Source of the DNA: a virus | Lineage: Duplodnaviria > Caudoviricetes | DNA: 59,893 bases | Virus record (IMG/VR): IMGVR_UViG_3300028595_000001 | Coordinates: 1-59,893 of that record | Direction: 5' to 3' (one strand) | Part shown: positions 3,493 to 18,422 of the stretch, one piece after another | Position numbering within the stretch: the stretch's first letter is position 1 | How the letters are laid out: every line of letters starts with the position of its first letter | Notes under the pieces: model-generated | The model's database searches: none | The model's input: only the letters and a program-made list of their open reading frames with translations | Told to the model about the DNA's origin: nothing | Translations under genes and position numbers: made by a program

Positions 3493-5505
3493 ATGGGCGA
3501 TTCAATTTATTCTCCGGTCATGCAGGTTTTCGATAGCGACGGCAACCCAGGCGTTGGGTATAAACTTTATACTTATGAATCTGGTACAACAACTCCGAAG
3601 GTTGTTTATACTGATGAAGCGTGTACTGTGCCAGCCGCCAACCCCGTTGTCTTTGATTCAAGGGGCGAAGCAACAATTTATTACGCCGACGAATACAAGT
3701 TCGTTCTTAAAACTGACGAAGATGTTACGGTTTGGACTGTTGATGGAGTTGGGACCGCAGCAACATCATCAAGTTCAACGACATACTCATATTATCCCGA
3801 CCCAGACGAAACAGACCAGGGCGTAACCGCTTCTGGAACTGGGGATACTATTTATGATATTATAACAGAGGTTGGCACATCTGAGGTCGCCAACATTGTT
3901 TTACGACACGACGGAAGTGCAAACACCACCGATTATACGTTAGACACAAATATTGACCTAACATCATACCCGCTGGTCTTCATAGAAATACAGCCCGGAG
4001 CAAGACTTGTAAGGACTACCGGAGATGAACTCTTAACCGTAGATACGCCAAACAACATTGTAGCGTCTAAAAACCAACAAATTACTGCGGTGAGCATGAT
4101 TCGTTTTAATGGATCTGGTTCTGTGCCTGTTGAATGGTTCGGAAGTGGGACAAGCGCCACTCAATTTGCGGTTAGTTCTTTGTTGGGCGGCGGAACAGTA
4201 GAATTAAACAATGGAACATACACATCTGTTAAGGTTACAATTACAACAGACATAACATTGTTAATAAAACAAGCAGCGACTTTAAAACTTGCCGATAGTA
4301 CGGACGACTCGCTTGTTTACGTTAATGGGGCGAACAGGTTTGATTTAATAGGAACTGGAATTATAGACGGAAACAAGGATAATAATAGCACATCAAACGG
4401 AACCATTGAAGTTAATGCAACCGATATAGTCAACATCGGATATGTGACGATAAAAGATTCTGATGGAGATGCTGTAAAAATTACGACTGCTACGAATGGA
4501 ACGATAACGCCGATCATTACGGATGCTGATGGGTCAGGTGTTTATACGGTTGATTGCGATAATTTAGACATTAGGCCAGACATTGACACATGCGAACACA
4601 ACGGGGTTATAGTTGTACCAAGCACGAAAAATTGTAGCAATATTAGGGTCGGAGGATACATTAAAAGTCCCGCTCAGACCGGAACGCCGTATGTCGGAGT
4701 TTATTTTAACTCAGGCGACACATATTACGTTGAGAACAGCTTTATAAGTTCTATTGTCGAAGACGCTGGTTATATAGGAATTTATCCTGGTGGAGACTTC
4801 AACACCATTACAGACGGAGCCAGAGTAAATGGTGCTGGGAAAGTAACAAGCGCCAGCGGATACGGAATATGGGTGCATGACTCAGCCCACATTACCATTG
4901 GTTCTGTAGTTGTCAGCAACGGGGAAAACACTGGAATTTTGGTCAACAAAGCCCATAATGTTACCATAACGGGAGCATTGTCATACCGGAACGCTAACGC
5001 TGGTTTTTGGTTTGATTATGACACAAACGCAACTGGAAGACACCAAACTACAGATACCAACAAGGCCACCACATGCGTTGGTTGCATGGCTATCGAAAAC
5101 AGCTATGGAAGCGTCGGAACATGGCCTGGATTTTATATAGATGGATATAGAAATTTGACCCTAAGCGGTTGCCAAGCGCATGATTACCAAGGAACTCAAT
5201 CACAGGGCCGTGGCGTTGTAGCGGCCACCAATGCAACCACAGCTAACATATCTATAATCGGGTGCGATTTTTCAGACAATGTTTCAGGGAACGGGATAAA
5301 CGTGGCAAGGGGCTATTTGTCGCAGTGTTTTGGGAATACACCAAATGACGGAACCTTTATTACTTTGGATGATGATGACTGGGACGATCAACCGGTTATA
5401 ATCGGAAGTTATTACCTATGGGTTGATAGTACGGGCGATCTAAGAATCAAAAGCAGTGCTCCTTCAAGCGATACCGATGGGACAATTGTTGGGACACAAT
5501 CATAA
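3493..5505 (+). CDS. Tailspike with virion-binding N-terminus and right-handed beta-helix
   Basis: N-terminal YTYESGTTTPK...NPVVFDSRG; beta-helix-like repeats; C-terminal YLWVDSTGDLRIKSSAPSSDTDG motif. Confidence 0.8.
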   Translation: MGDSIYSPVMQVFDSDGNPGVGYKLYTYESGTTTPKVVYTDEACTVPAANPVVFDSRGEATIYYADEYKFVLKTDEDVTVWTVDGVGTAATSSSSTTYSYYPDPDETDQGVTASGTGDTIYDIITEVGTSEVANIVLRHDGSANTTDYTLDTNIDLTSYPLVFIEIQPGARLVRTTGDELLTVDTPNNIVASKNQQITAVSMIRFNGSGSVPVEWFGSGTSATQFAVSSLLGGGTVELNNGTYTSVKVTITTDITLLIKQAATLKLADSTDDSLVYVNGANRFDLIGTGIIDGNKDNNSTSNGTIEVNATDIVNIGYVTIKDSDGDAVKITTATNGTITPIITDADGSGVYTVDCDNLDIRPDIDTCEHNGVIVVPSTKNCSNIRVGGYIKSPAQTGTPYVGVYFNSGDTYYVENSFISSIVEDAGYIGIYPGGDFNTITDGARVNGAGKVTSASGYGIWVHDSAHITIGSVVVSNGENTGILVNKAHNVTITGALSYRNANAGFWFDYDTNATGRHQTTDTNKATTCVGCMAIENSYGSVGTWPGFYIDGYRNLTLSGCQAHDYQGTQSQGRGVVAATNATTANISIIGCDFSDNVSGNGINVARGYLSQCFGNTPNDGTFITLDDDDWDDQPVIIGSYYLWVDSTGDLRIKSSAPSSDTDGTIVGTQS

Positions 5506-6843
5506 TGAAAATACCTTTCATTAGCGGCGAAGGACCGGACGGATATTTGCCGATAAACTTGTATTTTTCACCCCGCAAAATATATGGGCGTGACGCACTT
5601 GTTGGCAGACCTGGATTGCTTGAGTTCTGTGACCTTGGATCATCTGCGAAAGTACGGGCAATGGCAGAAAGTCGCGGCATGGGTTTTGTTGTTAGCGGCA
5701 GCGGTTTGTATAAAGTAACTCCGTTCGGTGGTAGCACACTTATTGGAACGCTTGACTATAGCTCTGGGAACGCTTGGATTGAAAGCAACGGAGAACAGGT
5801 GTGCGTGGTAGAAAACAACCGTTGTTATATTTATGAGGATGAAACCCTTAGTGACGTTGAAAACGACGACCTGCCTTTTTCACCTGCATCGCTTGCATAT
5901 GAGGGGGGGTATTTTCTTTCACACGATGCAAACTCAGAAAACTTTTATGAATCTGATTTGTATGATGGAAGCTCTTGGAACGGTGTAGAGTATGCCATCA
6001 CTTCAGTAAAAAAAGATTATTTGTCATCATTGTATGCGGTTAATGGACAAGTTTATGCGATGGGGCATGAGTCTGGTGAAGTTTACTACAACTCTGGGGG
6101 AAGTGATTTTGCGTTTTCAAAAATACAGGGTGGTAACATACCGTGCGGAATTCTTGCAGAAAAAAGTGGCGCGGTTTTTCTTAACAGCTTGGTGGCCTTG
6201 GACAATACTGGCGTTGTTGTTCAGCTTTCTGCCAACCCGATTAAACTAAGTAACGAGCATGTAGATCGTGAGATCGCGTCAATGACAACAGCTAAAGACG
6301 CGAATAGCTTTATGTTTTCAATGAGTGGTCACACGTTTTATGTGATTACTTTCCCGACCGGAAACAAGACTTTTGTTTACGACATGGTGTTCAAGCATTG
6401 GTACGAATGGAGAACGGGAACCGGAAGGTGGCGTCCAAACTGCTACATGAAACTCGACAAAAAGCATCTAGCCGGAGACTACGCAAACGGAAAAATATAT
6501 GAGTTAAGCGAGACTACATATTCAGATGACGGTGATGAAATAATCAGACAGCGAGCCATGCCGGTGCAGAAGGGGTCAGAGCTTGTTACTTTTTCTTCTT
6601 TTGAGTTGGAACAAGAAGGCGGGGTTGGAATTTCTACCGGACAGGGCTCTGATCCGCAAGCCGTACTGGAAGTTTCTGTTGATAAGGGCAAAACGTGGGG
6701 AAACGAAAAATGGCGCGATATTGGAAAAGCCGGTAAATATAAGCAGCGTTTGATTTGGAGAAGGCTTGGAAGGCACAGAGATTTCACGCCAAGAGTGACG
6801 GTTTCTGACCCTGTTAGGACTGTTTGGACGGGAGCGTACTTGA

Positions 6844-6857
<14 letters not shown>
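5505..6857 (+). CDS. Tail hub / packaged DNA stabilisation protein (P22 gp10-like)
   Basis: [11 protein letters not shown]...TFVYD...W, GDY.NGKIY, GVG...GQGSDPQ, GKTWGNE, WRRLG motifs. Confidence 0.9.
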
Positions 6858-8034
<1,177 letters not shown>

Positions 8035-8035
8035 A

Positions 8036-8899
8036 ATGATTTCAGCTTCAATGATAGTTAAAAACGAAGAGGCCATGCTTGGTGCGTGTCTTGCGTCTAT
8101 CAAGGGACTGGACGAAATTGTCATACTCGATACGGGGTCTACCGACAAAACTGTTGAAATAGCTAAGAAATACACCAGCAAGGTTTATGCCGACGAGTAC
8201 AAGTGGAACGACGATTTTGCCGAAGCGAGAAACCTGTCGCTGTCTAAATGCCACGGCGACTGGATTTTTATCATCGACGCTGACGAAAAGCTGATTAGCC
8301 CGGTTGACCAGTTATATGAAGATGTAAGCAAACACTCAGATGAACACATTATTAACATAAATGTTAACGGCAACAAAACGTCCATGCTGGCACCGAGGTT
8401 GTTTAAAAACAACACGGGGATAGTGTGGAAGGGTGCCATTCATAACTACTTGAGCGTGACAGGTAATGCTGTTGGTAAAAGCGTTATTGAGTACGGGTAC
8501 AGCCCTACCCACAAAAAAGACCCAGACCGTACAATCAGGATTTTGAGGAAAGAACTGGAGAAAAACCCGAAGCTTGTCCGTGAGAGATACTATCTTGCCA
8601 GAGAACACTATTATCGAAAAAACTGGACGGCAGCAATTGCCTGGTTTGATTCGTATCTTTCCGTTGCGTGGTGGGCGCCTGAATGGGCTGACGCATGGGT
8701 TCTGAAGGCTGTTTGCCATAAAAACATAGGGCAGTTCAATCAGGCAAAAGATTGTTGTTTAGAAGCAATAAAAATAAACGCTGATTTTAAACAGGCGTTA
8801 AAGCTGATGGCGGAGTTGTCCGGCCCAAAGAACAAAAAAAAATGGCTTGATTATGCAAAGATGTCTAATAATAACGATGTTTTATTTATAAGGGCTTAG
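8036..8899 (+). CDS. GT2 glycosyltransferase with TPR-like C-terminus
   Basis: ISASMIVKNEE, DTGSTD, DFAEARN, IIDADE, WKGAIH; helical repeats at the C-terminus. Confidence 0.92.
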   Translation: MISASMIVKNEEAMLGACLASIKGLDEIVILDTGSTDKTVEIAKKYTSKVYADEYKWNDDFAEARNLSLSKCHGDWIFIIDADEKLISPVDQLYEDVSKHSDEHIININVNGNKTSMLAPRLFKNNTGIVWKGAIHNYLSVTGNAVGKSVIEYGYSPTHKKDPDRTIRILRKELEKNPKLVRERYYLAREHYYRKNWTAAIAWFDSYLSVAWWAPEWADAWVLKAVCHKNIGQFNQAKDCCLEAIKINADFKQALKLMAELSGPKNKKKWLDYAKMSNNNDVLFIRA

Positions 8900-8948
8900 T
8901 TGTTTTATAAACAAGCTGCTGGTTTAATGGAAACGTAAGGAGTTCGGC

Positions 8949-9764
8949 ATGGGATTTTTTGACAAAATTTTAAAACCTGTTCTTGGGGGTGCTGCTGGGT
9001 TTTTGGTGAGTGGTGGCAATCCTATTGGGGCAATAATGGGCGCGGGGCTTGGCGCAAGCATGAACGCAACCGATGCCCAGACTGAAGCAGCGCGAAACGC
9101 ATCCAATACACAAATGCAGTCTGCAAGAGAAGCCAATGCACTCCAAAAGTATATGTACGACACAACCCGTGCTGATACACAGCCGTTCAGAGATATAGAA
9201 CTTCAGGGCGCGAACATTGGCATCAACGCTATGGACCAGCTTTACGATAAAGCAATGGCTGGCCCTGGGGATTTTAAGGCAAGCGATGCGTATAAATGGA
9301 ACCTAAGCCAAGGAATAAACGCGCTTGATAAAAGTGCCGTTGCTGGCGGAAGATCCAGAAATGCCGACACCATGAGGTTTGCATCTGGTCTTGCTTCTAA
9401 TGAGCAAGATAATTTTTTGCGCCGTTATTACGACTCACTTAACCCGTTGCAGTCTTTGGCAAGGGTACAGACAGGATATAATAATGCCTTAAACTCTGCC
9501 GGTCAGAATTACGCTGGCAATTCCGGCACTAACTTGAGGTATGCTGGCGATGCCGCCGCACAAGGATTGCTTGCCGGTGGGCAGGCCGAGGCCCAAAAAT
9601 GGAATATGCTTGGCGCTGCCCCCATGAACGCAATGGCAGCGTACAATATGTACCAGCAGCCCAATCAGGTACCTTATTCTTACGGCAACGCCCTTGGCTA
9701 TGCCGCAGCGCCGACAGGACCATTTCATATGGGTCAGTTTAAAACCACAGCCTACGGGATGTAA
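8949..9764 (+). CDS. DNA ejection/pilot protein (P22 gp7-like)
   Basis: Gly/Ala-rich hydrophobic N-terminus; QKYMYDTTRADTQPF; position after tail genes. Confidence 0.8.
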   Translation: MGFFDKILKPVLGGAAGFLVSGGNPIGAIMGAGLGASMNATDAQTEAARNASNTQMQSAREANALQKYMYDTTRADTQPFRDIELQGANIGINAMDQLYDKAMAGPGDFKASDAYKWNLSQGINALDKSAVAGGRSRNADTMRFASGLASNEQDNFLRRYYDSLNPLQSLARVQTGYNNALNSAGQNYAGNSGTNLRYAGDAAAQGLLAGGQAEAQKWNMLGAAPMNAMAAYNMYQQPNQVPYSYGNALGYAAAPTGPFHMGQFKTTAYGM

Positions 9765-9767
9765 AAA

Positions 9768-11195
9768 ATGGTAAATTACAACGCTTTCAACGTAGACCCG
9801 AACCAATACCAGCAGCAGGCAATGGGAAACTTTTCCAATGCTATGCAGATTCGCAACCAAAATCAACAGGCGGCGGACAGGAACGCTTTGTATAAGCAGC
9901 AACAGGCTGACCTACAGGAGCAACGGAAGGCGCAGAACGCTTTTGAGGCGCAACGGGTTGGAGAGTTGCAAAAAAGAACTGTTTTACAACAGCAACAGCT
10001 TGAACAAGAAAAGAAACAAGATCAGTACCGTAGGTGGGGCAAAGGGATAGAAATAGCTTTGCAACAAAAAACGACAGATGGGGCCAATGCTGCATTGAGA
10101 AACATCGCTCCTGTTCTTGGCTTAGAAGACGTAGAAAGTTTTTCATTTACAAATGTAAACCCAACACAATCAACGGGCGTTATTAAAACATCACAGGGCG
10201 ATGTTGAGATAACAGCGCCGACCGAAAATTTTTTTCCTGTAGTCGAAAAGATGACCACCGATCCGACGTTGGCAAACAATCCTGAATTGATGGGTAAGTT
10301 TTTGGCGGACAATGGCGCTTCGTTGAAACCATACACAGCAAAAGAAAAAGACGATGGATTTACGTTGGGTGAGGGACAGATAAGATATGATAAAAACGGA
10401 AACATTATAGCAAAAGGAACTCCCAAAAAAGACAAAGAAGAATCAACAAAGCCTATTTACGATAGGAATGTAGAGTTGGCCCTTGCTGCAAACAATATCC
10501 AAAAAACCAAAACTGGTGGTTACGAACAATTGGGATTTAACATAGACGGAGAAGAAACGTGGGTTCCAGCGTCAAAAGAAAACGCGCAATGGGCTGCAAA
10601 AACAGAAAGAGAACAAAGATATTATACATCCCAGGTTTTAAAATTTAAGAAAGAACTTGAAAAAAAATACAATGATACAATTAGTTATGAAGACGCTGGC
10701 TATGAATTTGAACAAAGAAGGGCAGAAGAAAGAGCAAAAAGAGCGGCTCGCGATGCTGCCTTTAAAAAAAGTTCGGCGGACGAACAAAGGTTTAAGCGTA
10801 TAGACAGGGGCGGTCCTCAAAAAAACAAACAAAAATTTGACCCAGAAGGAAACGGTTACGACATGGAGTCTGCGAAAGCAGCCGGTCTTAAGCCAGATTC
10901 TACGGGCCACTGGCCGTCAAGAGATCCAAAAACAGGGCTTCTTTTAAAGGGTCGTGGCCATAAAACGTGGAAAAAAACAATAGCTGCTGAAAAAGCTGCT
11001 GGATACGAAGTATATAAAGGGGATGATGGTAGATACTATTCTCGTAAAAAGAAAAAAGATATGTGGGAAAACTACCAAGAAGAGAGCAAAAATGCCTTTA
11101 AAGGTGCGGGTTTGCCTGAATCTTTAATGCAAGACCTCCCCAAAAAGAATGTAATGTCAGGAATGCCAAAACCGTACAACGCGAGATTTCGATGA
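9768..11195 (+). CDS. DNA ejection protein (gp20-like position)
   Basis: Gln-rich coiled N-terminus; FTLGEGQIRYD motif; lies between gp7-like and giant protein. Confidence 0.65.
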   Translation: MVNYNAFNVDPNQYQQQAMGNFSNAMQIRNQNQQAADRNALYKQQQADLQEQRKAQNAFEAQRVGELQKRTVLQQQQLEQEKKQDQYRRWGKGIEIALQQKTTDGANAALRNIAPVLGLEDVESFSFTNVNPTQSTGVIKTSQGDVEITAPTENFFPVVEKMTTDPTLANNPELMGKFLADNGASLKPYTAKEKDDGFTLGEGQIRYDKNGNIIAKGTPKKDKEESTKPIYDRNVELALAANNIQKTKTGGYEQLGFNIDGEETWVPASKENAQWAAKTEREQRYYTSQVLKFKKELEKKYNDTISYEDAGYEFEQRRAEERAKRAARDAAFKKSSADEQRFKRIDRGGPQKNKQKFDPEGNGYDMESAKAAGLKPDSTGHWPSRDPKTGLLLKGRGHKTWKKTIAAEKAAGYEVYKGDDGRYYSRKKKKDMWENYQEESKNAFKGAGLPESLMQDLPKKNVMSGMPKPYNARFR

Positions 11196-14100
11196 CTAAT
11201 TGGTCAAAAACATTTGATTATTTAGACAGGAAGGAAATTTTTCCGCTTCCTGAACAACCGTTAGTAAACCAGCCGAAGCCAGTTGAACCAGACGACAAGT
11301 CTGAGTTTGGCAAAGGTTGGAAAGCCGGATTGTATCAAACCGCTGCCGTTGCTCCTGCTGTTGTTTCAATGGCGGGAAAAGCTGTTGGTGCTGATTCCGT
11401 TGCTGAGTGGGGCGCAGAAAAAGCTGGCGGTTTGATGGAAAAAGCGTCTGAGTATGAGGGTGAAACTTCTTTTGAAGAACTAATTGACAGCCCAACATTA
11501 GAGGGTGCAACCAATTGGTTTTTGCACACGGCAGGAACGGTTGCTCCATCTATGATTATTGGCATGACGGGCGCTGGCATTGGCGCAAAAGCGTTGGGTG
11601 GTTTGGCCTTAAAGAAAATGTCAAAATCTTTAATTGCCAACAAAGCCAAGGGACTTGTGGCTGAGGGGGTTGCGAAAGACGTTGCTGTCAAGCTGGCAGC
11701 AAAACAGCTTGCTTCAAAAGCCGTTAAATACGGCGCTGCGGCTGGAATTGTTGCAACAACGGCACCACAAGAAGCCGCCCACAATTTTATGGCTGACGTT
11801 GAGCAGCACGGTATTGAGAACGCTTCTCCAGGCAAGGCAGCATTAACAGGAACAGCCGCTGGCCTTGTGGAGCTTGGTTTTGGTGGTGGTCATTTACGCC
11901 TTATTAATAAGGTGTTGGGGGTTAAGGCCGGAAAGGTTGCTACCAAAGAACTGAGTAAGCTTGCCAAAATAGGCAAAGTTGGTGATGAATACCGTCTTGT
12001 TCGGATGCTAAAAGAAGCCGTTATTCAGGGTGGCGGCGAAGGATTACAGGAACTAACCCAAGAAGAACTATCTATCCTGAACGAAATCTGGACCGGCGAA
12101 GACCAATCCTTTTTTGAAAAAAAGAACCTGCTGCGCGCTGGCGAATCGTTTGCTGCTGGTGCTGTCATGGGTGTTCCTACTGGTGGTGTGACGGGTGTGT
12201 TCAGCAAAGCTTCGGTTGATAATAGCGGTGATACCACAGGAGAGGGCGATACAGGCACAAAAGTTAAGGGGCGCACCATTGACCTTGGAGACATCCCCGG
12301 CCCTGACGAATACGCCCGTATGGAAGCGTCCATGGGTGAAGACAGGGGGACAAGGACACTTGATGTTTATAAACAATCTCGCGGGAAAACCGTACCGAAC
12401 AGAAACCCAATTCAAGCAGAAATAGAACGACGCAAAGAAGAACAATATTGGAAGGACGAAGAAACAAAAATTAAATCCCAGCGCAGAGATGCTGGAATGG
12501 ATAGAAAAGACCCCAAACAGCAAGCATTGGAGGAAGCATGGCAAAAGGACAATGTAACGGAACCGGTCAAGGCAACGGAAATGGCTGCAAGAACCCAAGC
12601 CCCTGCTGCGGAAGCAACCGCAAAGGTAACGGAAATTGCGGAAAGCCCCAAGGAAAGGGCCGCAATAAGTGACAAAACGCCCCGTAAAGCAAAAGAAGGT
12701 CAAGGCGTTAAGAAACCACTGGTACAAAAAGTCGCACCGGAAAAGGCAGCGGAGGTAAAAGTTGGAGGTGTCGCCGTTACGTATAACCCCACAATTTCAA
12801 GGGTTGACAAAAACCGAGGGAATGGCGCGGCGGGTGTTGTTTTAATGGAAGAATCAGGACTCTCTACAGAACTTCCTGTGAGCAAGGGTGACGATATATT
12901 ATATAGGGGCATGTCTAAGGCTGAATATGAAAACGTAATTGAAACAGGGAAAATAGCGTCACACGGAAAAGGTGACTTTGTTCACGTGGGACACGAAGGT
13001 CAGACATCTTTCGTGGATGACCCCGTTGTCGCTGGCATGTTCGCTCATGGAGGTAGCCCCCGTGCTGGTGGAAAACCGTCTGTCAATGAACCAGCATATA
13101 TAATCGGCGTGAAGACAAATGCGCCTAAAACTAAAAGGCCATACCAGTATGGAGTCAAGGAAGCCACGGAATACGGTGTTGCTGGAGAAATTAGTGCTTC
13201 GGAGATTGTGAGCGTTACTGAATCAAACATGTATGCGATTGCTGATAACATTACTATCGACATGCCGATGGCAGAGCGCATCGGCATCGGGTACAGGGCA
13301 TTAAAACACAAGATCGCATCGAAAGAAGGTCAAGGCGTTAAGAAACCGTTGGTACAAAGTGTCTCATATAAAGCGTCAAAGAAAGTAGATTCAGCCGCTG
13401 ATGTCTTTAACACGGGTTCCTCGTCTTTTGGAGGCGGAATAAATAGCGTTACTTCTAGTGTCAAGAAGCTTGGCAATATTAGAAATAGACTCGCCTCTCT
13501 TAATCATAGTTTTAGCGACCTTGATGTCAAAACTAAGAGGAATGTGCAGTCTATTATGGTCGATGCGCTTCATCAGCCTGAGGTTAGAAATGCGGTTATC
13601 AAGTCTATCCCCGTTAATGTGGTGGACGACTTCATCTCTTTTGCCGGAATTTTAAATGGACCTGCCGATATGTTCTTCCATAACGGCGATGTGCTCCTTG
13701 ACCCTAACATTATTAATACAAAAAACTCTATACCCACTGGAGTTTATAGTGCCAGTTCTTTGCTGGATGGCATAGCACGCCTGACTACATCACAAAAAGA
13801 GACGGAAGTAAAGACCAAAACACAAAAAGCCACACCCGAAAAGGCAGCGAAGATAGGTGTTGACAAAGCGTGGGTTAAATTAGCAGAAAAACACGGAATA
13901 AAAAAACCATCTGATGCAGAAATAAAAAGACGCAACGACGAACTGATTGAAAAAAAGCGTGAGTTTGAGAGGAAACGGACAAAAGCTGCACCGAAGGCGA
14001 CAAAGACCAAACTCGCTACCGACCGCCGTCAACACCCATTAGACCCCGGCGGCGCACAGTACACCGATAAGAAACGCCGCAACCCACTGTTTCCAAGAAG

Positions 14101-17100
14101 CAAGAAGCCTGACCGCCGTCAAAACATTACTATGGCTAAACAGGTAGCGGCAGAGTTCAAGCGCATGGGTTTCGGTTCACGGGTGAACGGTGACAGCGTG
14201 CGTGTGTCAACCCCCACCGGAAACATTGCCATAAACATCGCTGACAGCGTGGTGGGAGACGATAGCGCAACGATAAGGATGGCATACGGTAAGGAAGCCA
14301 AGCCGGGGGAGAAAGTCGTAGGATCGTACTTTGACGGTGAAATTAAGCTGAAGCGCAACAAGGCTGACAGGTTTATTCTTAGCCACGAACTTTTTCACCA
14401 CATGAAAGCTGCTGGCCTGTTCACGGCGGCTGAAGAAAAAATCCTGTCACGCAAGGGGAGTGAGGAAGCACAGGCAAGATGGGTTGAGCGTCAGTTGAGA
14501 AACCGTGGCAAACAGAGCAGTGTGGTAAGAAAACTAATTAAGAAAATAGCCGACTTTTTGGACGCCTTGGCTAACGTGTTTGTGCGAACTGAGCGAGGGG
14601 TTTTGCGGGATGTGGAGTCGGGCAGAATCTTAAAAAGGAGCGACCCCAAGAATATCAGCGGCCCTCTTACGAAGAACGACATCAGGAAGCCTTCTGCCAA
14701 AGGGGTTGTGCCACCCCCTGCGAATAAAAGCCTCTCTAATGGAATTGGGGTGGCGGTTAAAAATCTTTCCAAGTCTTTTGTACCCGATACCGGCGTCCTT
14801 AAGCCTTTTAGCAGTCTTGATGTCGTAGGCCAAAGGGATGTGCTTGCGATGATGCGCACTATCCTTAAGGACAGAAAGGTTCTCGATTCTGTTGTCCGCC
14901 TTGTCCCCATTGATGTGGTGAACATGCTCAGTGGGAAGAAGATTTCTCCCAAGGTTTTGCTCGACAACCCATCTATGCTCGTAGACTTGCTTCCCACCGA
15001 CCCTAACGACCTTATACCCAGCGGCGTTCGTGCCGTTGATATACTTGCCCCTGTTAGCGCAATCAACGCTGCAAAAGTAGTTTTTGGAACTTCTGTGGTA
15101 CATGTATCGTCTAAAGAAATTCTTTCCGCAATTGGAACAGACAAGATCGGGCATGACAGCCTCCTTTCAATTGTCGATAAAATACCACACCCAAATGAAT
15201 ATGTCAACCAACTTTTTAACGAGGATGCCGCTGAGATTAACGAGCATATTCAGTACGCCACGGCGGTAGAGGGGGAACAATACACATTACCCTTGACCAA
15301 CATGGATAAAGCCAAGTCTGTTTTTAATCGCAAGTTCAACGATGCAATGTACTGGATTGTTGATAAAAATTATTCCATCGACGTAACACAGAAAAAACTT
15401 GGCGAACTGACAGATAAAATCAACGTGTTCTTGAAGGAAACGCAACGACCGAAGATTACCGCTGCGAAAGTAGAAAAGTTCTGGGAAGACGAGGTTCAGC
15501 CGCTTATTAAAAAGATGGCAAGGTACGGCGTAAACGTGGAAGACCTTGAACTGTATTCCCACGCCAAGCACGTTATTGGTGACAACCTCAACCAACTTCT
15601 TAGGGAGCGCAACGCTAAAATTCAGGTTGAAGAAATCATTGGCGTTCTCGATAAAAAAGAATCTAAAGCCGTTGAAGCATCCGTTAAGGGCGTGAAGGCA
15701 CCCGCCGATTGGTTGAAGCATCTTGAAGAAATATTTGACGCACACAAAAACAACGAAGACGTTCAGATGCTTAAAGCGAAATGGGATAAGTTCGCTGAAA
15801 AGCCATCTGGAATGACAGACAAAGATGCTAAAGCTGTTCTAAAACAATATGAGGGCGACGAAAAAATAGAAGAACTCCGCAAGATGATGCTGAACATCAA
15901 CAAGGGAAGACTTGACCTTCTTTTCGATGCGGGGCAAATCCCCAAAGAAGAATATGACAGAATTGTAAAAAAATACAAGTATTACGTTCCCCTGTATCGT
16001 GAAGGCTACGACGACTCTATGTTCGGAACGACAAGGGGGCTGAAACCTTCTGGGCGACAGGTAAAAGTTCGTGGCGGTTCTACAAGGAACGTGGTCAATA
16101 TCTTTGCGAACACGGTTGCCAATTATGAGAAGGCAATCAACATATCTGAAAAGGCTGTGTCTCAAAGGGCGTTGTACGGGCTTGCCAAGGCCAACATTGG
16201 TTCTGAAACGCTCACCATAAGACCCGTTAAAAAGTCTCCCCGCACGGACAAGAATGGAAATATTAGAATGTATCCAAACTTGTTTGAAGTCGAGCCAAAC
16301 GAGATGCGGATTATGGTAGACGGCAAGCAGTATCTTATAGAGGTAAACAAAGACGACAAAGACGCAATGTTGATGATGCGGACGCTCAAGGCAGATGACG
16401 GCATGAACGGTCCAATTGTCAACTTTCTTGCCAGAATAAACAGGTTCCTTGCGAGAATAAATACTACATGGTCGCCTGAGTTTATTATATCCAACTTCTT
16501 GCGAGACTTTGGAACGGCGAACATCAATATAAGGGACACCGGGGTAAAAGGGGAAAATATGTTCTCCGGTGCCAGAAAAGCCATTGTTGCGATACTTGCG
16601 GTAGAACGTGGTAAACGAAAAGGCACAGACCTTGAAAAGATGTATGATCGTTTTAAAGCGGCTGGTGGGAAGATCGGTTGGGCAGATGTTCACGGTTCGG
16701 TTGAAAATCTATCCAAAAAAATAACCAGAGAAATTGAGATGCAGTCGGGTAAGCGTCCGACAAGGGCTGCGATTAAAGGGTGGCTGGAATTAATCGACAA
16801 CGCGAATACGGCAATTGAAAACGGTATTAGGCTTCACACGTTCAAGCTTGCTACAGAACAGGGGAAGACTGACGAACGTGCAGCGCAGATAGCGTCAGAC
16901 CTAACGGTAGACTTTACCAAGAAGGGTGCGGCTGGACCCGTTATAAACTCTTTATATTTGTTCGCCAATGCTGGTATACAGGGTTCCTATCGTATCTTAA
17001 GAGCAAGCATCAAGTCTCGTTCGGTTCAGAAAGTGCTGGCGGGTATTGTCGGAACAAGTTTTGTCGTTGGAATTTTAAACTCAATGGCGGGTGAAGACGA

Positions 17101-18019
17101 AGACGGGGAAGACTATTTCAACAAAATTGACGACTTCGTGCGCGAACGGAATATGATTTTTATGATCCCAGGCACGAAAGGAAAATACGCCAAAATACCA
17201 GCACCTTGGGGATACAATTTGTTTTGGAATATTGGATCTGAACTTTCTCGCGCAGTTACAAAAGAAAATTTCAGTGCCATGTCAAGTGCCGGAAGGCTGA
17301 TATCTATTGCGGCTGGTGCGTTTAACCCCGTTCAGTCGGGGACGTTATTGCAAACACTCTCACCGACCGTGGCAGATCCGTTCGTCATGGTTTCCGAAAA
17401 CAAGAATTGGTTTGGTGGCGATTTAATGCCAGCAGTTAATAAGTTTGAGAGGGTTCCTACACCGGATTCGCAAAGATATTGGAAGTCGGCAAGTTCTGGT
17501 TCAAAATGGGTTGCTGGAGCATTAAACAAACTAACCCGTGGCGACAAAATCAAGTCTGGCGCAATAGACGTATCACCAGAAACGCTTGATCTTATCTTGG
17601 ACACCGCTGGTGGGTCAGCACTTCGGTTTTTCAAAGATTCAATCGGTGTTCCTCTCGCCAAAATTCGTGGTGAAGAAATAGAAGCGCATAAAATACCATT
17701 TTACAGAAGGGTTGCTGGGGATCAACCAGCGTGGGCGAACTCAAGAATATATTATGAAAACATTGAGAATGTTTTAATCGCGAAGGAAAGGCTGAAAGCC
17801 TACAAGGGAACTGTCCAATACAAGAATGTGTTGATTGCCACGAAAGACCTGAGAAAGATGATGCCCCTTGCTGAACAAAGCGAAAAGAGACTCAGGAAGT
17901 TAAGAAAATCATTGAAGGCGGCTGAAGTATCTGGCGATAAAGACCGCGTTGAAACAATCAAAAAAAGAATGAACGCTGTATATAACCGATTTAACAAGTT
18001 TTACAACAAGGAGAAATGA
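11192..18019 (+). CDS. Giant injected polyvalent protein (gp16-like position): ART-like domain, HExxH metallopeptidase-like domain, LPD38-like C-terminus
   Basis: 2275 aa open frame; EGLQELTQE ejection-protein motif; LYRG..TSF..E ART pattern; SHELFHH; LTVDFTKKG...LYLFANAGIQG, KIPAPWGY, NKNWFG. Confidence 0.85.
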   Translation: MTNWSKTFDYLDRKEIFPLPEQPLVNQPKPVEPDDKSEFGKGWKAGLYQTAAVAPAVVSMAGKAVGADSVAEWGAEKAGGLMEKASEYEGETSFEELIDSPTLEGATNWFLHTAGTVAPSMIIGMTGAGIGAKALGGLALKKMSKSLIANKAKGLVAEGVAKDVAVKLAAKQLASKAVKYGAAAGIVATTAPQEAAHNFMADVEQHGIENASPGKAALTGTAAGLVELGFGGGHLRLINKVLGVKAGKVATKELSKLAKIGKVGDEYRLVRMLKEAVIQGGGEGLQELTQEELSILNEIWTGEDQSFFEKKNLLRAGESFAAGAVMGVPTGGVTGVFSKASVDNSGDTTGEGDTGTKVKGRTIDLGDIPGPDEYARMEASMGEDRGTRTLDVYKQSRGKTVPNRNPIQAEIERRKEEQYWKDEETKIKSQRRDAGMDRKDPKQQALEEAWQKDNVTEPVKATEMAARTQAPAAEATAKVTEIAESPKERAAISDKTPRKAKEGQGVKKPLVQKVAPEKAAEVKVGGVAVTYNPTISRVDKNRGNGAAGVVLMEESGLSTELPVSKGDDILYRGMSKAEYENVIETGKIASHGKGDFVHVGHEGQTSFVDDPVVAGMFAHGGSPRAGGKPSVNEPAYIIGVKTNAPKTKRPYQYGVKEATEYGVAGEISASEIVSVTESNMYAIADNITIDMPMAERIGIGYRALKHKIASKEGQGVKKPLVQSVSYKASKKVDSAADVFNTGSSSFGGGINSVTSSVKKLGNIRNRLASLNHSFSDLDVKTKRNVQSIMVDALHQPEVRNAVIKSIPVNVVDDFISFAGILNGPADMFFHNGDVLLDPNIINTKNSIPTGVYSASSLLDGIARLTTSQKETEVKTKTQKATPEKAAKIGVDKAWVKLAEKHGIKKPSDAEIKRRNDELIEKKREFERKRTKAAPKATKTKLATDRRQHPLDPGGAQYTDKKRRNPLFPRSKKPDRRQNITMAKQVAAEFKRMGFGSRVNGDSVRVSTPTGNIAINIADSVVGDDSATIRMAYGKEAKPGEKVVGSYFDGEIKLKRNKADRFILSHELFHHMKAAGLFTAAEEKILSRKGSEEAQARWVERQLRNRGKQSSVVRKLIKKIADFLDALANVFVRTERGVLRDVESGRILKRSDPKNISGPLTKNDIRKPSAKGVVPPPANKSLSNGIGVAVKNLSKSFVPDTGVLKPFSSLDVVGQRDVLAMMRTILKDRKVLDSVVRLVPIDVVNMLSGKKISPKVLLDNPSMLVDLLPTDPNDLIPSGVRAVDILAPVSAINAAKVVFGTSVVHVSSKEILSAIGTDKIGHDSLLSIVDKIPHPNEYVNQLFNEDAAEINEHIQYATAVEGEQYTLPLTNMDKAKSVFNRKFNDAMYWIVDKNYSIDVTQKKLGELTDKINVFLKETQRPKITAAKVEKFWEDEVQPLIKKMARYGVNVEDLELYSHAKHVIGDNLNQLLRERNAKIQVEEIIGVLDKKESKAVEASVKGVKAPADWLKHLEEIFDAHKNNEDVQMLKAKWDKFAEKPSGMTDKDAKAVLKQYEGDEKIEELRKMMLNINKGRLDLLFDAGQIPKEEYDRIVKKYKYYVPLYREGYDDSMFGTTRGLKPSGRQVKVRGGSTRNVVNIFANTVANYEKAINISEKAVSQRALYGLAKANIGSETLTIRPVKKSPRTDKNGNIRMYPNLFEVEPNEMRIMVDGKQYLIEVNKDDKDAMLMMRTLKADDGMNGPIVNFLARINRFLARINTTWSPEFIISNFLRDFGTANINIRDTGVKGENMFSGARKAIVAILAVERGKRKGTDLEKMYDRFKAAGGKIGWADVHGSVENLSKKITREIEMQSGKRPTRAAIKGWLELIDNANTAIENGIRLHTFKLATEQGKTDERAAQIASDLTVDFTKKGAAGPVINSLYLFANAGIQGSYRILRASIKSRSVQKVLAGIVGTSFVVGILNSMAGEDEDGEDYFNKIDDFVRERNMIFMIPGTKGKYAKIPAPWGYNLFWNIGSELSRAVTKENFSAMSSAGRLISIAAGAFNPVQSGTLLQTLSPTVADPFVMVSENKNWFGGDLMPAVNKFERVPTPDSQRYWKSASSGSKWVAGALNKLTRGDKIKSGAIDVSPETLDLILDTAGGSALRFFKDSIGVPLAKIRGEEIEAHKIPFYRRVAGDQPAWANSRIYYENIENVLIAKERLKAYKGTVQYKNVLIATKDLRKMMPLAEQSEKRLRKLRKSLKAAEVSGDKDRVETIKKRMNAVYNRFNKFYNKEK
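13391..13789 (-). pseudogene. Decayed antisense HNH endonuclease nested in giant ORF
   Basis: Minus-strand translation CSQAC...GYRVF...KEHIAVMEEHIGRSI*NSGKRDEVVHHINGDRLDNRISNL...HIPLSFDIKVAK; internal TAA at 13652-13654; no start codon for the full-length frame (TGA at 13790-13792). Confidence 0.85.
14630..15154 (-). CDS. HNH homing endonuclease nested antisense in giant ORF
   Basis: CSNC/FCSVDC zinc motif, YEHRWVVEQNLGRNL, HVHHINGDKADNRIENL, C-terminal HTH-like segment; own RBS and promoter. Confidence 0.92.
   Translation of the reverse strand: MPDLVCSNCGKNFFRRYMYHRSSKNYFCSVDCANRGKYINGTNAAGYKVVRVGGKQVYEHRWVVEQNLGRNLLPTEHVHHINGDKADNRIENLSVLKDSAHHRKHIPLAYDIKTAKRLKDAGIGYKRLGKIFNRHPNSIREAFIRRGWHNPFGRRLPDVVLRKRAADILGVAPF
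15160..15207 (-). promoter_or_regulatory. Sigma70 promoter plus Shine-Dalgarno for the nested HNH gene
   Basis: Minus strand reads TTGACA-17nt-(TGG)TATTTT ... AAAGGAGG-5nt-ATG. Confidence 0.85.
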
Positions 18020-18020
18020 T

Positions 18021-18422
18021 ATGGCTGGCAGTGCAACAATTGTATCAAACAAACTTAACGGCATGTGGAGAACGATTGTATGGAGATGGACTTCCGATGC
18101 TTCTGGCGATGTCAGTGGCGTAGGTTCTTTGGCCATTCCCGGTGGGTCGGTGAACACGATTCTTTCCGTACCTGATTCTGGTGTTACCCCTGACTTTGAT
18201 CTTGTTATTACTGGAAAAATTTTTCTTGATAACGGCGCAACTGTTTCCGTTGCCGATTTGTTAAATGGTGTCGGTACGGACCTATCCAATTCAACGAATG
18301 GTGAAGCGATAAACGTAAACGTGACCTACCCGCTTCCGTACAATGTTGAAATCGCTCCGGTTATTTCTGGCGCAGGTAGCGCAACATCTGGGTACCTGTT
18401 TTTGTTCATATGGCAAGAATAA
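18021..18422 (+). CDS. Hypothetical virion-associated beta protein
   Basis: AAGGAG RBS; in late operon; WTSDASG motif. Confidence 0.6.
   Translation: MAGSATIVSNKLNGMWRTIVWRWTSDASGDVSGVGSLAIPGGSVNTILSVPDSGVTPDFDLVITGKIFLDNGATVSVADLLNGVGTDLSNSTNGEAINVNVTYPLPYNVEIAPVISGAGSATSGYLFLFIWQE

What the first reader, a model, noticed from the sequence alone, without database searches (positions are those of the whole stretch)
13358..13822. Second, decayed antisense HNH copy in the same gene, plus-strand frame preserved
Seen: minus strand 13789-13391 is clearly homologous to the intact HNH (GYRVF/GYKVV, KEH/YEH, HHINGDRLDNRISNL, HIPLSFDIKVAK/HIPLAYDIKTAK) in the same register, but has a TAA at 13652-13654 and lacks its N-terminus and start. 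The plus frame stays open (VIKSIPVNVVDD vs VVRLVPIDVVNM). Inference: the gene was invaded repeatedly; the nuclease dies while its antisense peptide remains in the virion protein, a route to new protein sequence. This argues the intact copy is not a one-off.
Basis: partly seen in the sequence, partly recalled or inferred. Interest (0 to 1): 0.85.

Follow-up and report, generated by a model that had tools for sequence, protein, structure and literature searches.

The report
Antisense homing nucleases inside giant phage gene
A giant phage protein gene carries two selfish HNH nuclease genes written backwards on its opposite strand, one intact and one broken, while the giant gene still reads straight through them, and the same arrangement turns up in many other phages.

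Summary
On the minus strand, 13391-13789 is a true HNH_3 endonuclease homologue of the intact minus-strand HNH gene at 14630-15154 (38% identity, E 2e-27). It has an in-frame TAA at 13652-13654, a TGA at 13790-13792, and no N-terminus, start or expression signals. Both copies are antisense and codon-aligned to the 2275-aa plus-strand polyvalent-protein ORF (11192-18019), which stays open through both. Each copy lies in an in-frame insert at a module junction: 468 nt splitting a duplicated linker, and 576 nt that is essentially a promoter + Shine-Dalgarno + ORF cassette. Chance openness has P about 0.003 per copy. In a tree the two copies fall in different HNH sublineages, so they are separate invasions. 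The arrangement is general. HNH relatives lie antisense, codon-aligned and stop-free inside open frames of 543-3477 aa in 14 of 86 viral loci, 5 of 80 metagenome loci and 7 of 80 genome loci, and these include the best hits in every collection. A profile of the antisense peptide finds 3683 protein-cluster representatives; 126 of the top 150 are at least 1000 aa. I found no paper describing this way of carrying a homing endonuclease gene. Not tested: reads at the TAA, expression, and nuclease activity.

The parts
11192..18019 (+). Giant polyvalent-protein ORF (2275 aa) in the structural/ejection gene block. It stays open through both antisense HNH inserts.
   Evidence: ORF; Pfam LPD38, E 1.5e-36, residues 1975-2170; C-terminal part matches giant PHROGs including a DarB-like family; neighbours are connector, tail fibre and DNA-ejection genes.
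12692..12764 (+). Uninterrupted copy of the linker (translated ...KEGQGVKKPLVQKVAPEKAAEVKVG...). It serves as an internal 'empty site' for insert 2.
12737..13354 (+). Module between the two linker copies, possibly ADP-ribosyltransferase-like (weak evidence).
   Evidence: Pfam TreTu_C, E 0.0027, 18.7 bits, below the 27-bit cut-off. The R/S/E-type motif reading is from recall, not from a call.
13322..13366 (+). Left half of the second linker copy (89% identical to 12692-12736).
13355..13822 (.). Insert 2: 468 nt (156 codons, in frame) that splits the second linker copy. The junction can slide within a roughly 13-nt stretch present at both ends (13354-13366 and 13822-13834).
   Evidence: Codon-usage log-ratio of plus versus minus frame is 0.185 for the insert and 0.08 for the HNH part, against 0.40 +/- 0.10 in other genes.
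13391..13789 (-). Decayed HNH_3 homing-endonuclease gene. It lacks the first 27 residues, the start, the Shine-Dalgarno and the promoter. The HH..N..N core and the C-terminal helix-turn-helix-like region are retained.
13652..13654 (-). In-frame TAA inside the Pfam HNH_3 match. It reads as a TTA Leu codon in the plus frame.
   Evidence: Not checked in reads.
13822..13862 (+). Right half of the second linker copy (80% identical to 12724-12764).
13862..14635 (+). HExxH module between the two inserts (zincin-like peptidase of polyvalent proteins, by motif). It is conserved in relatives L011, L013, L014 and L015.
   Evidence: No Pfam family reached threshold. The MPTase reading follows passages of PMC5512222.
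14636..15211 (.). Insert 1: 576 nt (192 codons, in frame). It sits between the end of the HExxH module and the conserved C-terminal region, in a slot where relatives carry other modules.
   Evidence: homology with L014 and L011 stops and resumes at these points; a contig in run X1 diverges just before 15215; codon log-ratio 0.04.
14630..15154 (-). Intact HNH_3 homing-endonuclease ORF (174 aa): zinc-ribbon-like N-terminus, HNH core and helix-turn-helix-like C-terminus. Its stop codon lies in the conserved host flank.
15155..15207 (-). Expression signals of the intact HNH: AAAGGAGG at 15167-15160, 5 nt before the ATG, and TTGACA-17-TATTTT with an upstream TG at 15207-15179.
   Evidence: consensus matches only; the region as a whole has no more promoter-like sites than shuffled sequence.
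15212..18016 (+). Conserved C-terminal region of the giant protein, including LPD38.

Best explanation
The window is a complete phage genome of about 60 kb. Its giant, modular polyvalent-protein gene has been invaded twice, independently, by free-standing HNH_3 homing endonuclease genes. Both lie on the opposite strand with their codons exactly aligned to the host codons. In that register the nuclease's ATG reads as His in the host frame, and its stop codons read as Leu or Ser. The nuclease only has to avoid TTA, CTA and TCA codons for the host protein to be translated straight through the insert as an extra 150-190 residues of poorly structured peptide between modules. The copy at 14630-15154 is an intact cassette with its own promoter-like site and strong Shine-Dalgarno. 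It is most likely an active, mobile nuclease. The copy at 13391-13789 has lost its 5' end and gained a nonsense codon, so the nuclease is dead. Its antisense peptide persists because any frameshift or plus-strand stop would truncate the host protein. SHOWN: homology of the two copies, their register, the in-frame insert boundaries, the non-random absence of stops, separate phylogenetic placement, and recurrence of the arrangement in many other phage giant genes. INFERRED: that the plus frame is actually translated through the inserts, that the intact nuclease is expressed and cuts insert-free alleles, and that the leftover peptide is raw material for new protein sequence.
For: Homology and family.

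Register and chance: P(no antisense stop) is 0.0036 and 0.0027, and the intact copy uses CTT for 11 of 12 Leu codons against 30% genome-wide.

Insert 2 interrupts a linker that exists uninterrupted 630 nt upstream; its length is 468 nt, or 156 codons. Insert 1 is 576 nt and is bounded exactly by loss and return of homology with relatives L014 and L011. Seven relatives of the giant gene (L009-L015) lack both HNH copies.

Expression signals.

The HNH frame is the mainly selected one. Its third codon position is the least conserved in every identity bin. The plus-versus-minus codon-usage log-ratio falls to 0.04 and 0.08 in the inserts, against 0.40 +/- 0.10 in 43 reference windows.

Separate invasions: the intact copy sits in a 99/98 clade with L016-L020 that excludes the decayed copy.

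Generality: 14 of 86 viral loci, 5 of 80 metagenome loci and 7 of 80 genome loci have the HNH inside a codon-aligned antisense open frame of at least 500 aa. Embedded copies have 0.0 stops per 100 codons in that frame, against 7.05 and 3.5 in the other two antisense frames. Sixty-four free-standing relatives have 3.21 in that frame. A profile of the antisense peptide gives 3683, 545 and 102 representatives at E 1e-3, 1e-10 and 1e-30, and 126 of the top 150 are at least 1000 aa. All three sampled giants carry polyvalent-protein domains, though P0003's only hit (ART-PolyVal, 22.1 bits) is below Pfam's 31.2-bit cut-off. L023 carries two intact antisense HNHs in one giant ORF.

No intron or intein: Rfam gives 0 hits at E<=1 over 11000-18200, and the plus peptides have no credible Pfam family and no Hint/intein family (only two sub-threshold hits at E 0.076 and 0.14, on insert 2).
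Against: There is no direct evidence that the plus frame is translated through the inserts, that the HNH is transcribed, or that it cleaves DNA. No RNA run was available.

The promoter-like site is a consensus match only. The region has no more such sites than shuffled sequence (2 found, 2.6 expected).

The TAA rests on one metagenome assembly and could not be checked in reads.

Insert 1 has no true empty-site allele. Relatives carry other modules in that slot, so it could have arrived by module replacement rather than simple insertion.

A relative (L009) tolerates a sense-strand homing endonuclease that splits the giant gene in two, so an open frame is not strictly required in this gene family.

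Deep nodes of the HNH tree are weak, and the decayed copy's own placement has no starred support.

The surveys were seeded with HNH motifs, which biases them toward intact nucleases. The antisense-peptide profile also matches short antisense stretches of free-standing HNH genes, so the weaker database hits may be miscalled ORFs.

The extra third-position identity among embedded pairs (0.384 against 0.335 in the 35-45% bin) comes from non-independent pairs and is confounded by GC content (0.534 against 0.432).
Confidence: 0.78

Rival explanations
1. A single invasion was followed by duplication within the gene. One HNH-containing segment was copied inside the giant gene and the two copies then diverged, so the gene was invaded once.
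For: Both copies are in one gene, in the same orientation and the same codon register. The gene contains internal repeats, the duplicated linker. Deep tree nodes are weakly supported.
Against: The copies are only 38% identical, whereas the intact one is 53-58% identical to HNHs in other phages (L016, L017, L176). A 99/98 clade joins the intact copy to L016-L020 and excludes the decayed one. The flanks of the two inserts are unrelated, a linker in one case and the end of the HExxH module in the other.
Confidence: 0.08
2. Both nucleases are relics. The plus-strand peptide is now the only functional product, and the 'intact' minus ORF is open only because it is young or because codon alignment protects it. 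No homing is going on.
For: There are no expression or activity data. Selection on the plus frame forbids frameshifts, which also protects the minus frame. In some hosts TTA, CTA and TCA are rare enough that an open HNH frame is not very surprising (P0 up to 0.48).
Against: Full-length HNH frames with catalytic motifs are open in all 26 embedded loci examined, and the product of the per-locus chance values is 10^-43.7. That figure is partly circular, because ORF length was defined by the open stretch. A strong Shine-Dalgarno lies 5 nt from the ATG, and similar sites occur in L022, L023, L029 and L033. HNH third codon positions are the least conserved. The plus peptide has low predicted order (pLDDT 50.5), looks atypical to a language model, and has strand-neutral codon usage.
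Confidence: 0.1
3. The inserts are removed before the mature protein forms, as introns with antisense endonuclease genes or as intein-like elements. On this view the plus-strand peptide is never part of the virion protein.
For: Antisense homing endonuclease genes are known inside nuclear group I introns (PMC9548176, title and abstract seen in the listing). Homing endonucleases usually live in introns or inteins.
Against: There are no Rfam intron matches at E<=1, and no Hint/intein family in the plus peptides. If the insert were spliced out of the RNA there would be no selection for an open plus frame, yet embedded copies have zero stops in exactly that frame. Insert lengths are multiples of three.
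Confidence: 0.03
4. Artefact or chance. The similarity or the open frame is coincidental, or the orientation is an assembly error.
For: The sequence is a single metagenome-assembled genome, and no reads covered the inserts.
Against: Pairwise E is 2e-27, and both copies pass Pfam thresholds. The same arrangement occurs in 26 independent contigs from three collections.
Confidence: 0.01

Closest known systems
Free-standing phage homing endonuclease genes that insert into and split essential genes (mobE in Aeromonas phage Aeh1 nrdA, mobA in T4 gene 39/60, the seg-like gene in phage 25 gene 43; review PMC2988022, passages read)
   Same: It is an intron-less, intein-less HNH-type endonuclease gene with its own expression signals. 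It sits inside a large phage gene next to conserved sequence, and it is present in some relatives and absent in others. A relative here (L009) shows exactly this splitting type.
   Different: In those cases the nuclease gene lies between two separate coding pieces and the host protein is made as two polypeptides. Here the nuclease gene is on the opposite strand, codon-aligned, and the host frame stays open, so one continuous host protein is predicted.
Intron- and intein-encoded homing endonucleases, including antisense endonuclease genes in nuclear group I introns (PMC9548176, listing and abstract only)
   Same: A selfish nuclease gene is placed inside a host gene in a way that spares host function. 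Antisense orientation of the nuclease gene has a precedent.
   Different: No self-splicing RNA or protein element was detected. Tolerance comes from reading the antisense strand as protein, which puts a dual-coding constraint on the nuclease gene.
Antisense overlapping (dual-coding) genes and overprinting in viruses (PMC8227390, PMC8903798; listings and abstracts only)
   Same: One DNA stretch encodes two proteins on opposite strands, and the sequence evolves under two sets of constraints.
   Different: Overprinting creates a new ORF inside an old gene. Here an old, mobile gene arrives ready-made, and it is the host's reading of it that is new.
Polyvalent proteins of phages and conjugative elements (Iyer et al. 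2017, PMC5512222; passages read)
   Same: The host gene fits: it is giant and modular, carries LPD38 (reported there as phage-type only), has an HExxH peptidase-like module, and lies among late/virion genes. Other hosts of the antisense peptide carry ART-PolyVal, LPD3, LPD39 and PBECR1.
   Different: A term search of that paper's main text found 0 uses of 'homing', 'antisense', 'opposite strand' or 'intein'. Its supplementary files could not be seen.
T4 gene 60 translational bypass element linked to a mobile endonuclease (bioRxiv 10.1101/2022.08.31.505936, abstract only)
   Same: It is another way for a mobile insert inside a phage coding region to be tolerated at the level of translation.
   Different: There, ribosomes skip a 50-nt gap. 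Here ribosomes are predicted to translate the whole insert.

Membership tests
HNH_3 (PF13392) homing endonuclease | Profile match above the curated threshold | tested here: met
   the intact copy scores 41.0 bits and the decayed copy (TAA read as X) 42.5 bits, against a cut-off of 24.8; 13 of the 14 PHROG families matched are annotated as HNH endonuclease (one is of unknown function).
HNH_3 (PF13392) homing endonuclease | Conserved His/Asn/His catalytic core (motif names are from recall) | tested here: met
   H79, H80, N82, D84, N88, N92, H101 and H105 of the intact copy are invariant between the two copies. The same HHIN core occurs in the embedded relatives.
HNH_3 (PF13392) homing endonuclease | Complete ORF with start codon and ribosome-binding site | tested here: met
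   Met for 14630-15154. NOT met for 13391-13789, which has the TAA at 13652-13654, lacks the first 27 residues and has no start.
HNH_3 (PF13392) homing endonuclease | Presence/absence polymorphism among related host genes (mobility) | tested here: met
   0 of 7 relatives of the giant gene (L009-L015) carry either copy. Close HNH relatives sit in mostly unrelated giant genes or are free-standing (L018).
HNH_3 (PF13392) homing endonuclease | Site-specific cleavage of the insert-free allele and gene conversion | not testable with these tools
   Needs a cleavage assay and co-infection crosses.
Polyvalent protein (Iyer et al. 2017) | Very large multidomain protein carrying family-specific LPD domains, in a phage late/virion context | tested here: met
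   2275 aa with LPD38 at E 1.5e-36. Neighbours are connector, tail fibre and DNA-ejection genes, and there is a DarB-like PHROG match.
Polyvalent protein (Iyer et al. 2017) | Zincin-like MPTase and ART effector modules | tested here: inconclusive
   An HExxH motif is present and the module is conserved in relatives, but no Pfam family matched. For ART there is only a sub-threshold TreTu_C hit (E 0.0027).
Group I/II intron carrying an endonuclease gene | Recognisable intron RNA structure, with no need for an open host frame | tested here: not met
   0 Rfam matches at E<=1 over 11000-18200. The host frame is non-randomly open.
Intein | Hint/splicing domain in the host-frame peptide | tested here: not met
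   No Hint/intein family for either plus-strand insert peptide at E<=1. Insert 1 has no hits. Insert 2 has only sub-threshold hits to DASH_Dam1 and dCache_1_like. The AF2 model has low confidence.

The most novel reading that the evidence does not exclude
A widespread and, as far as my searches show, undescribed way of life for homing endonucleases. A subfamily of zinc-ribbon/HNH/helix-turn-helix nucleases lives antisense and codon-aligned inside the giant ejected polyvalent-protein genes of many phage lineages, tolerated because the host translates the antisense strand as linker peptide. The nuclease gene evolves under a dual-coding rule (no TTA, CTA or TCA). When the nuclease dies, as in 13391-13789, the leftover 150-190 residues remain as new sequence in the host protein. 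Nuclease cuts at module junctions may also help drive the module shuffling typical of polyvalent proteins.
Probability: 0.5. Interest if true: 0.88.

Novelty: new variant of a known kind. Interest (0 to 1): 0.8.

Why it matters
Homing endonuclease genes are thought to survive inside genes in three ways: hiding in self-splicing introns, hiding in inteins, or splitting the host gene. This locus and its many relatives suggest a fourth way, which is to sit backwards in exact codon register so that the host simply reads through.

If that is right, three things follow:
- Hundreds to thousands of annotated giant phage proteins contain unrecognised segments that are the mirror image of a nuclease gene, and the nuclease genes themselves are missed by gene callers.
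- These loci are a natural, replicated system of long antisense dual coding, in which selection on two strands can be measured.
- There is a concrete, datable path by which selfish DNA becomes new protein sequence. The decayed copy studied here is the stage after nuclease death.

It also gives testable candidates for site-specific nucleases that target phage effector genes.

Tried and rejected
Group I/II intron: the Rfam scan of 11000-18200 at E<=1 gave 0 matches. Rejected, also because the host frame is selectively open.

Intein or known domain in the plus peptides: there were no meaningful Pfam or PHROG hits.

Other antisense genes in the giant ORF: six further minus-strand ORFs of 152-284 aa gave no Pfam family. 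They are treated as spurious.

Reads at the TAA: one run (X1) was listed with 0.07 of the words, and no RNA holder was listed. When laid, it left 13169-13650 and 14615-15096 uncovered, so the stop codon, population variants and expression could not be assessed.

Close relatives in isolated phages: megablast of the gene against GenBank phages found no match. tblastn of the plus-strand insert peptide found no match, so no cultured example was identified.

An intact close relative of the decayed copy: an exact-word scan of metagenome contigs found none. A profile scan found at best 42% identity.

Solved structures: single-sequence search gave 0 hits. A profile search matched only the helix-turn-helix-like C-terminus and, weakly, zinc-finger-like proteins.

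The language-model atlas gave no usable hit, with recognition score 1229.

A conserved distance between the HNH and a C-terminal motif across hosts could not be measured, because the motifs were not conserved.

The probability that HNH frames are open by chance is partly circular, because ORF length was defined by the open stretch. I use it only as a rough figure.

Literature: five searches and term searches in two papers found no description of antisense-nested, read-through homing endonuclease genes. Subscription journals and supplementary files were not searchable.
Full report
WHAT IS THERE. The window is a complete viral genome of 59,893 bp with direct terminal repeats. A plus-strand ORF of 2275 aa runs from 11192 to 18019. 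It lies downstream of connector, tail-fibre and DNA-ejection genes. Its C-terminus carries Pfam LPD38 (E 1.5e-36) and matches giant PHROG families, one of them annotated as DarB-like. This makes it a phage-type polyvalent protein in the sense of Iyer et al. 2017 (PMC5512222, passages read).

On the minus strand inside this ORF lie two HNH_3 endonuclease genes, and a six-frame search finds no others in the genome.
- The copy at 14630-15154 is an intact 174-aa ORF. AAAGGAGG sits 5 nt upstream of its ATG, and there is a TTGACA-17-TATTTT promoter-like site at 15207-15179.

The minus-strand translation shows the quoted motifs. It has a TAA at 13652-13654 and a TGA at 13790-13792 just upstream of the homologous part. 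BLASTP against the intact copy gives 38% identity over 125 residues, E 2e-27. Both copies pass the Pfam HNH_3 threshold. The alignment begins at residue 28 of the intact protein, so half of the zinc-ribbon-like N-terminus, the start codon and the upstream signals are missing. The plus-frame peptides are also similar, but less so (31% over 89 aa, E 4e-6). Both HNH frames are exactly codon-aligned with the plus frame. In that register, plus-strand stops correspond to TTA, CTA or TCA codons in the nuclease. Given each HNH protein sequence and this genome's synonymous usage, the chance of having none is 0.0036 and 0.0027. The intact copy uses CTT for 11 of its 12 leucines, against 30% genome-wide.

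THE INSERTS HAVE DEFINED, IN-FRAME BOUNDARIES.
- Insert 2. A 73-nt linker (12692-12764) occurs intact once and a second time split. Its left half is at 13322-13366 (89% identity) and its right half at 13822-13862 (80%). About 13 nt are shared by both ends. The decayed HNH therefore sits in a 468-nt, 156-codon insert, with a paralogous empty site in the same gene.
- Insert 1. Homology with the closest relatives found stops after residue 1148 (nt 14635) and resumes at residue 1341 (nt 15212). Those relatives are L014 (67-70% identity in the flanking regions) and L011. This defines a 576-nt, 192-codon insert that is almost exactly the promoter-to-stop cassette. The HNH stop codon itself lies in the conserved host flank. 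In that slot L014 and L011 carry other protein modules, and a contig from the one available sequencing run diverges just before 15215.
- None of seven relatives of the giant gene (L009-L015) has either HNH.

WHICH STRAND IS THE NATIVE CODING STRAND OF THE INSERTS. The log-ratio of plus-frame to codon-aligned minus-frame codon usage is 0.40 +/- 0.10 in 43 reference windows from other genes (minimum 0.167). It drops to 0.04 in insert 1 and 0.08 in the HNH part of insert 2, the lowest values along the gene. Across pairs of HNH relatives, the third codon position of the HNH frame, which is the first position of the host frame, is always the least conserved. The plus-frame peptide of insert 1 was folded with a 16-sequence alignment. 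It gives mean pLDDT 50.5 and pTM 0.28, with only a short helical stretch above 70. It matches no Pfam or PHROG family and scores low on a language-model recognition measure. So the nuclease frame carries the evolved information, and the host frame is kept open but looks like filler. At equal HNH identity, embedded pairs do show slightly higher antisense-peptide identity than free-standing pairs (0.262 against 0.212 in the 35-45% bin). The pairs are not independent and GC content differs, so I treat this as weak.

TWO INVASIONS, NOT A DUPLICATION. The tree has 72 HNH sequences; 16 of the 88 were dropped for being shorter than 95 aa. In it the intact copy lies in a 99/98-supported clade with L016, L017, L018, L019 and L020, all from other phage contigs. 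The decayed copy lies elsewhere, nearest to L040 and L022, without strong support. The embedded state is clustered on the tree (8 changes against a shuffled mean of 13.6; 0 of 500 shuffles as low). It is not a single clade, however, and L018, close to embedded L017, is free-standing with three antisense stops.

THE ARRANGEMENT IS GENERAL.
- Viral contigs. Among 86 loci encoding HNH relatives, 14 have the HNH inside a codon-aligned antisense open frame of 543-3477 aa, often running to the end of the fetched locus. These 14 include 10 of the 14 best hits.
- Stop counts, after removing identical sequences. The 14 embedded copies have 0.0 stops per 100 codons in that frame but 7.05 and 3.5 in the other two antisense frames. 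The 64 free-standing copies have 3.21, 5.09 and 4.86.
- Independent collections. Embedded cases are 5 of 80 metagenome loci and 7 of 80 species-representative genome loci. They include the three best metagenome hits and the six best genome hits, the latter from MAGs labelled Phycisphaerales, Burkholderiales, Smithella, Opitutia, Desulfuromonadaceae and Bathyarchaeia.
- State of the embedded nucleases. They are full-length, and most have start codons. Four loci (L022, L023, L029, L033) also have Shine-Dalgarno-like sites.
- Host genes. The host giant ORFs are mostly unrelated to each other outside the insert. Several share the conserved C-terminal region, and in L097 and L023 the insert lies directly upstream of it, as it does here.
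- Multiple copies. L023 has two intact antisense HNHs in one giant ORF.
- Protein database. A profile of 16 antisense peptides searched against 1.84 billion cluster representatives gave 3683 hits at E<=1e-3, 545 at 1e-10 and 102 at 1e-30. Of the best 150, 126 are at least 1000 aa and 88 at least 2000 aa, with a median of 2215 aa. Five of them have two copies. Three sampled giants carry ART-PolyVal, LPD38, LPD39, LPD3 and PBECR1; P0003's only hit is sub-threshold.
- Caveat. The same profile also matches short antisense stretches of free-standing HNH genes at E 1e-6 to 1e-19, so the weaker hits cannot be taken at face value.

MECHANISM PROPOSED. A free-standing HNH homing endonuclease cassette inserts, or is copied by repair, into a linker or module junction of a giant modular gene. 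In the antisense, codon-aligned register the nuclease keeps its own start, stop and promoter. In the host frame, ATG reads as His and the three stop codons read as Leu, Leu and Ser. Only inserts that are a multiple of three and free of TTA, CTA and TCA leave the host protein continuous, and those are the ones seen. Polyvalent proteins are strings of semi-independent modules, and Iyer et al. predict that some are cut apart by their own peptidase domains. An extra, poorly ordered 150-190 residues between modules is therefore plausibly harmless.

Once a nuclease loses function, frameshifts remain forbidden by the host frame. Decay then shows only as nonsense codons and in-frame deletions, which is exactly the state of 13391-13789. 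It has one internal stop in 132 codons where about 4.5 would be expected at host codon frequencies (33.6 per 1000). Its codon usage is still strand-neutral. Both points suggest the nuclease died fairly recently. Steps not shown: translation through the inserts, transcription of the nuclease, cleavage specificity and homing.

COMPARISON WITH WHAT IS KNOWN. The known arrangements are intron-encoded, intein-encoded, intergenic free-standing and gene-splitting free-standing endonucleases (PMC2988022, passages). A relative here, L009, shows the gene-splitting type: a sense-strand ORF matching PHROG 314 'homing endonuclease' (E 1.3e-11) divides its giant gene into ORFs of 1006 and 1447 aa. Antisense endonuclease genes are reported inside nuclear group I introns (PMC9548176, abstract only). 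I found no report of an antisense endonuclease gene that is read through as host protein. This rests on five full-text searches. In addition, the polyvalent-protein paper's main text contains no 'homing', 'antisense', 'opposite strand' or 'intein'. Its supplements and the subscription literature were not searchable.

VERDICT. The finding is one instance of a much broader and apparently undescribed arrangement. I rate it a new variant of a known kind (homing endonuclease genes), with high interest.

Noticed in passing
L009:7767-8378 (+), between ORFs 4798-7815 and 8357-12697: In a relative with 62% identity in the C-terminal region, the giant gene is split into two ORFs by a sense-strand gene matching PHROG 314 'homing endonuclease' (E 1.3e-11). 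No Pfam family matched. So the same gene family is also invaded in the classical gene-splitting way.
   Followed up: partly
L023:5001-5678 and about 6099-6690 (+ in locus orientation): Two different, apparently intact HNH genes lie antisense inside one 2792-aa open frame of another phage contig. Double occupancy is therefore not unique to the window.
   Followed up: partly
window 12692-12764, 13322-13366 and 13822-13862: A linker (translated KEGQGVKKPLVQKVAPEKAAE...) is repeated on both sides of a module of about 200 aa. L011 has analogous repeated linkers around its modules. Such repeats could serve as recombination sites for module exchange and as nuclease targets.
   Followed up: partly
window 14636-15211 compared with L014:6625-7641 and L011:9248-9832: The slot between the HExxH module and the conserved C-terminal region holds a different module in each relative (about 330 aa in L014, about 195 aa in L011). 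It is a hot spot for module replacement.
   Followed up: partly
L028:3112-6567 (+) overlapping the HNH ORF 4944-5579 (+): A 1152-aa open frame on the same strand, but in another frame, spans a free-standing HNH relative. I did not work out whether it is real or a by-product of base composition.
   Followed up: no
L181 (contig of a MAG labelled Bathyarchaeia archaeon): An embedded HNH lies in a 2776-aa antisense open frame on a 71.6-kb contig binned as an archaeon. It may be a mis-binned phage contig or an archaeal virus.
   Followed up: no
window 13702-13699 region, minus strand (AAGGAG 12 nt upstream of the ATG in ...AVMEEHIG...): Nine codons before the TAA, the decayed copy has an in-frame ATG preceded by AAGGAG at a long spacing. 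If the TAA were a sequencing error, a truncated protein of about 96 aa containing only the HNH core could be made.
   Followed up: no
window 8036-8899 (+): An ORF among the structural genes matches a PHROG annotated as beta-1,4-glycosyltransferase (E 1.5e-37).
   Followed up: no
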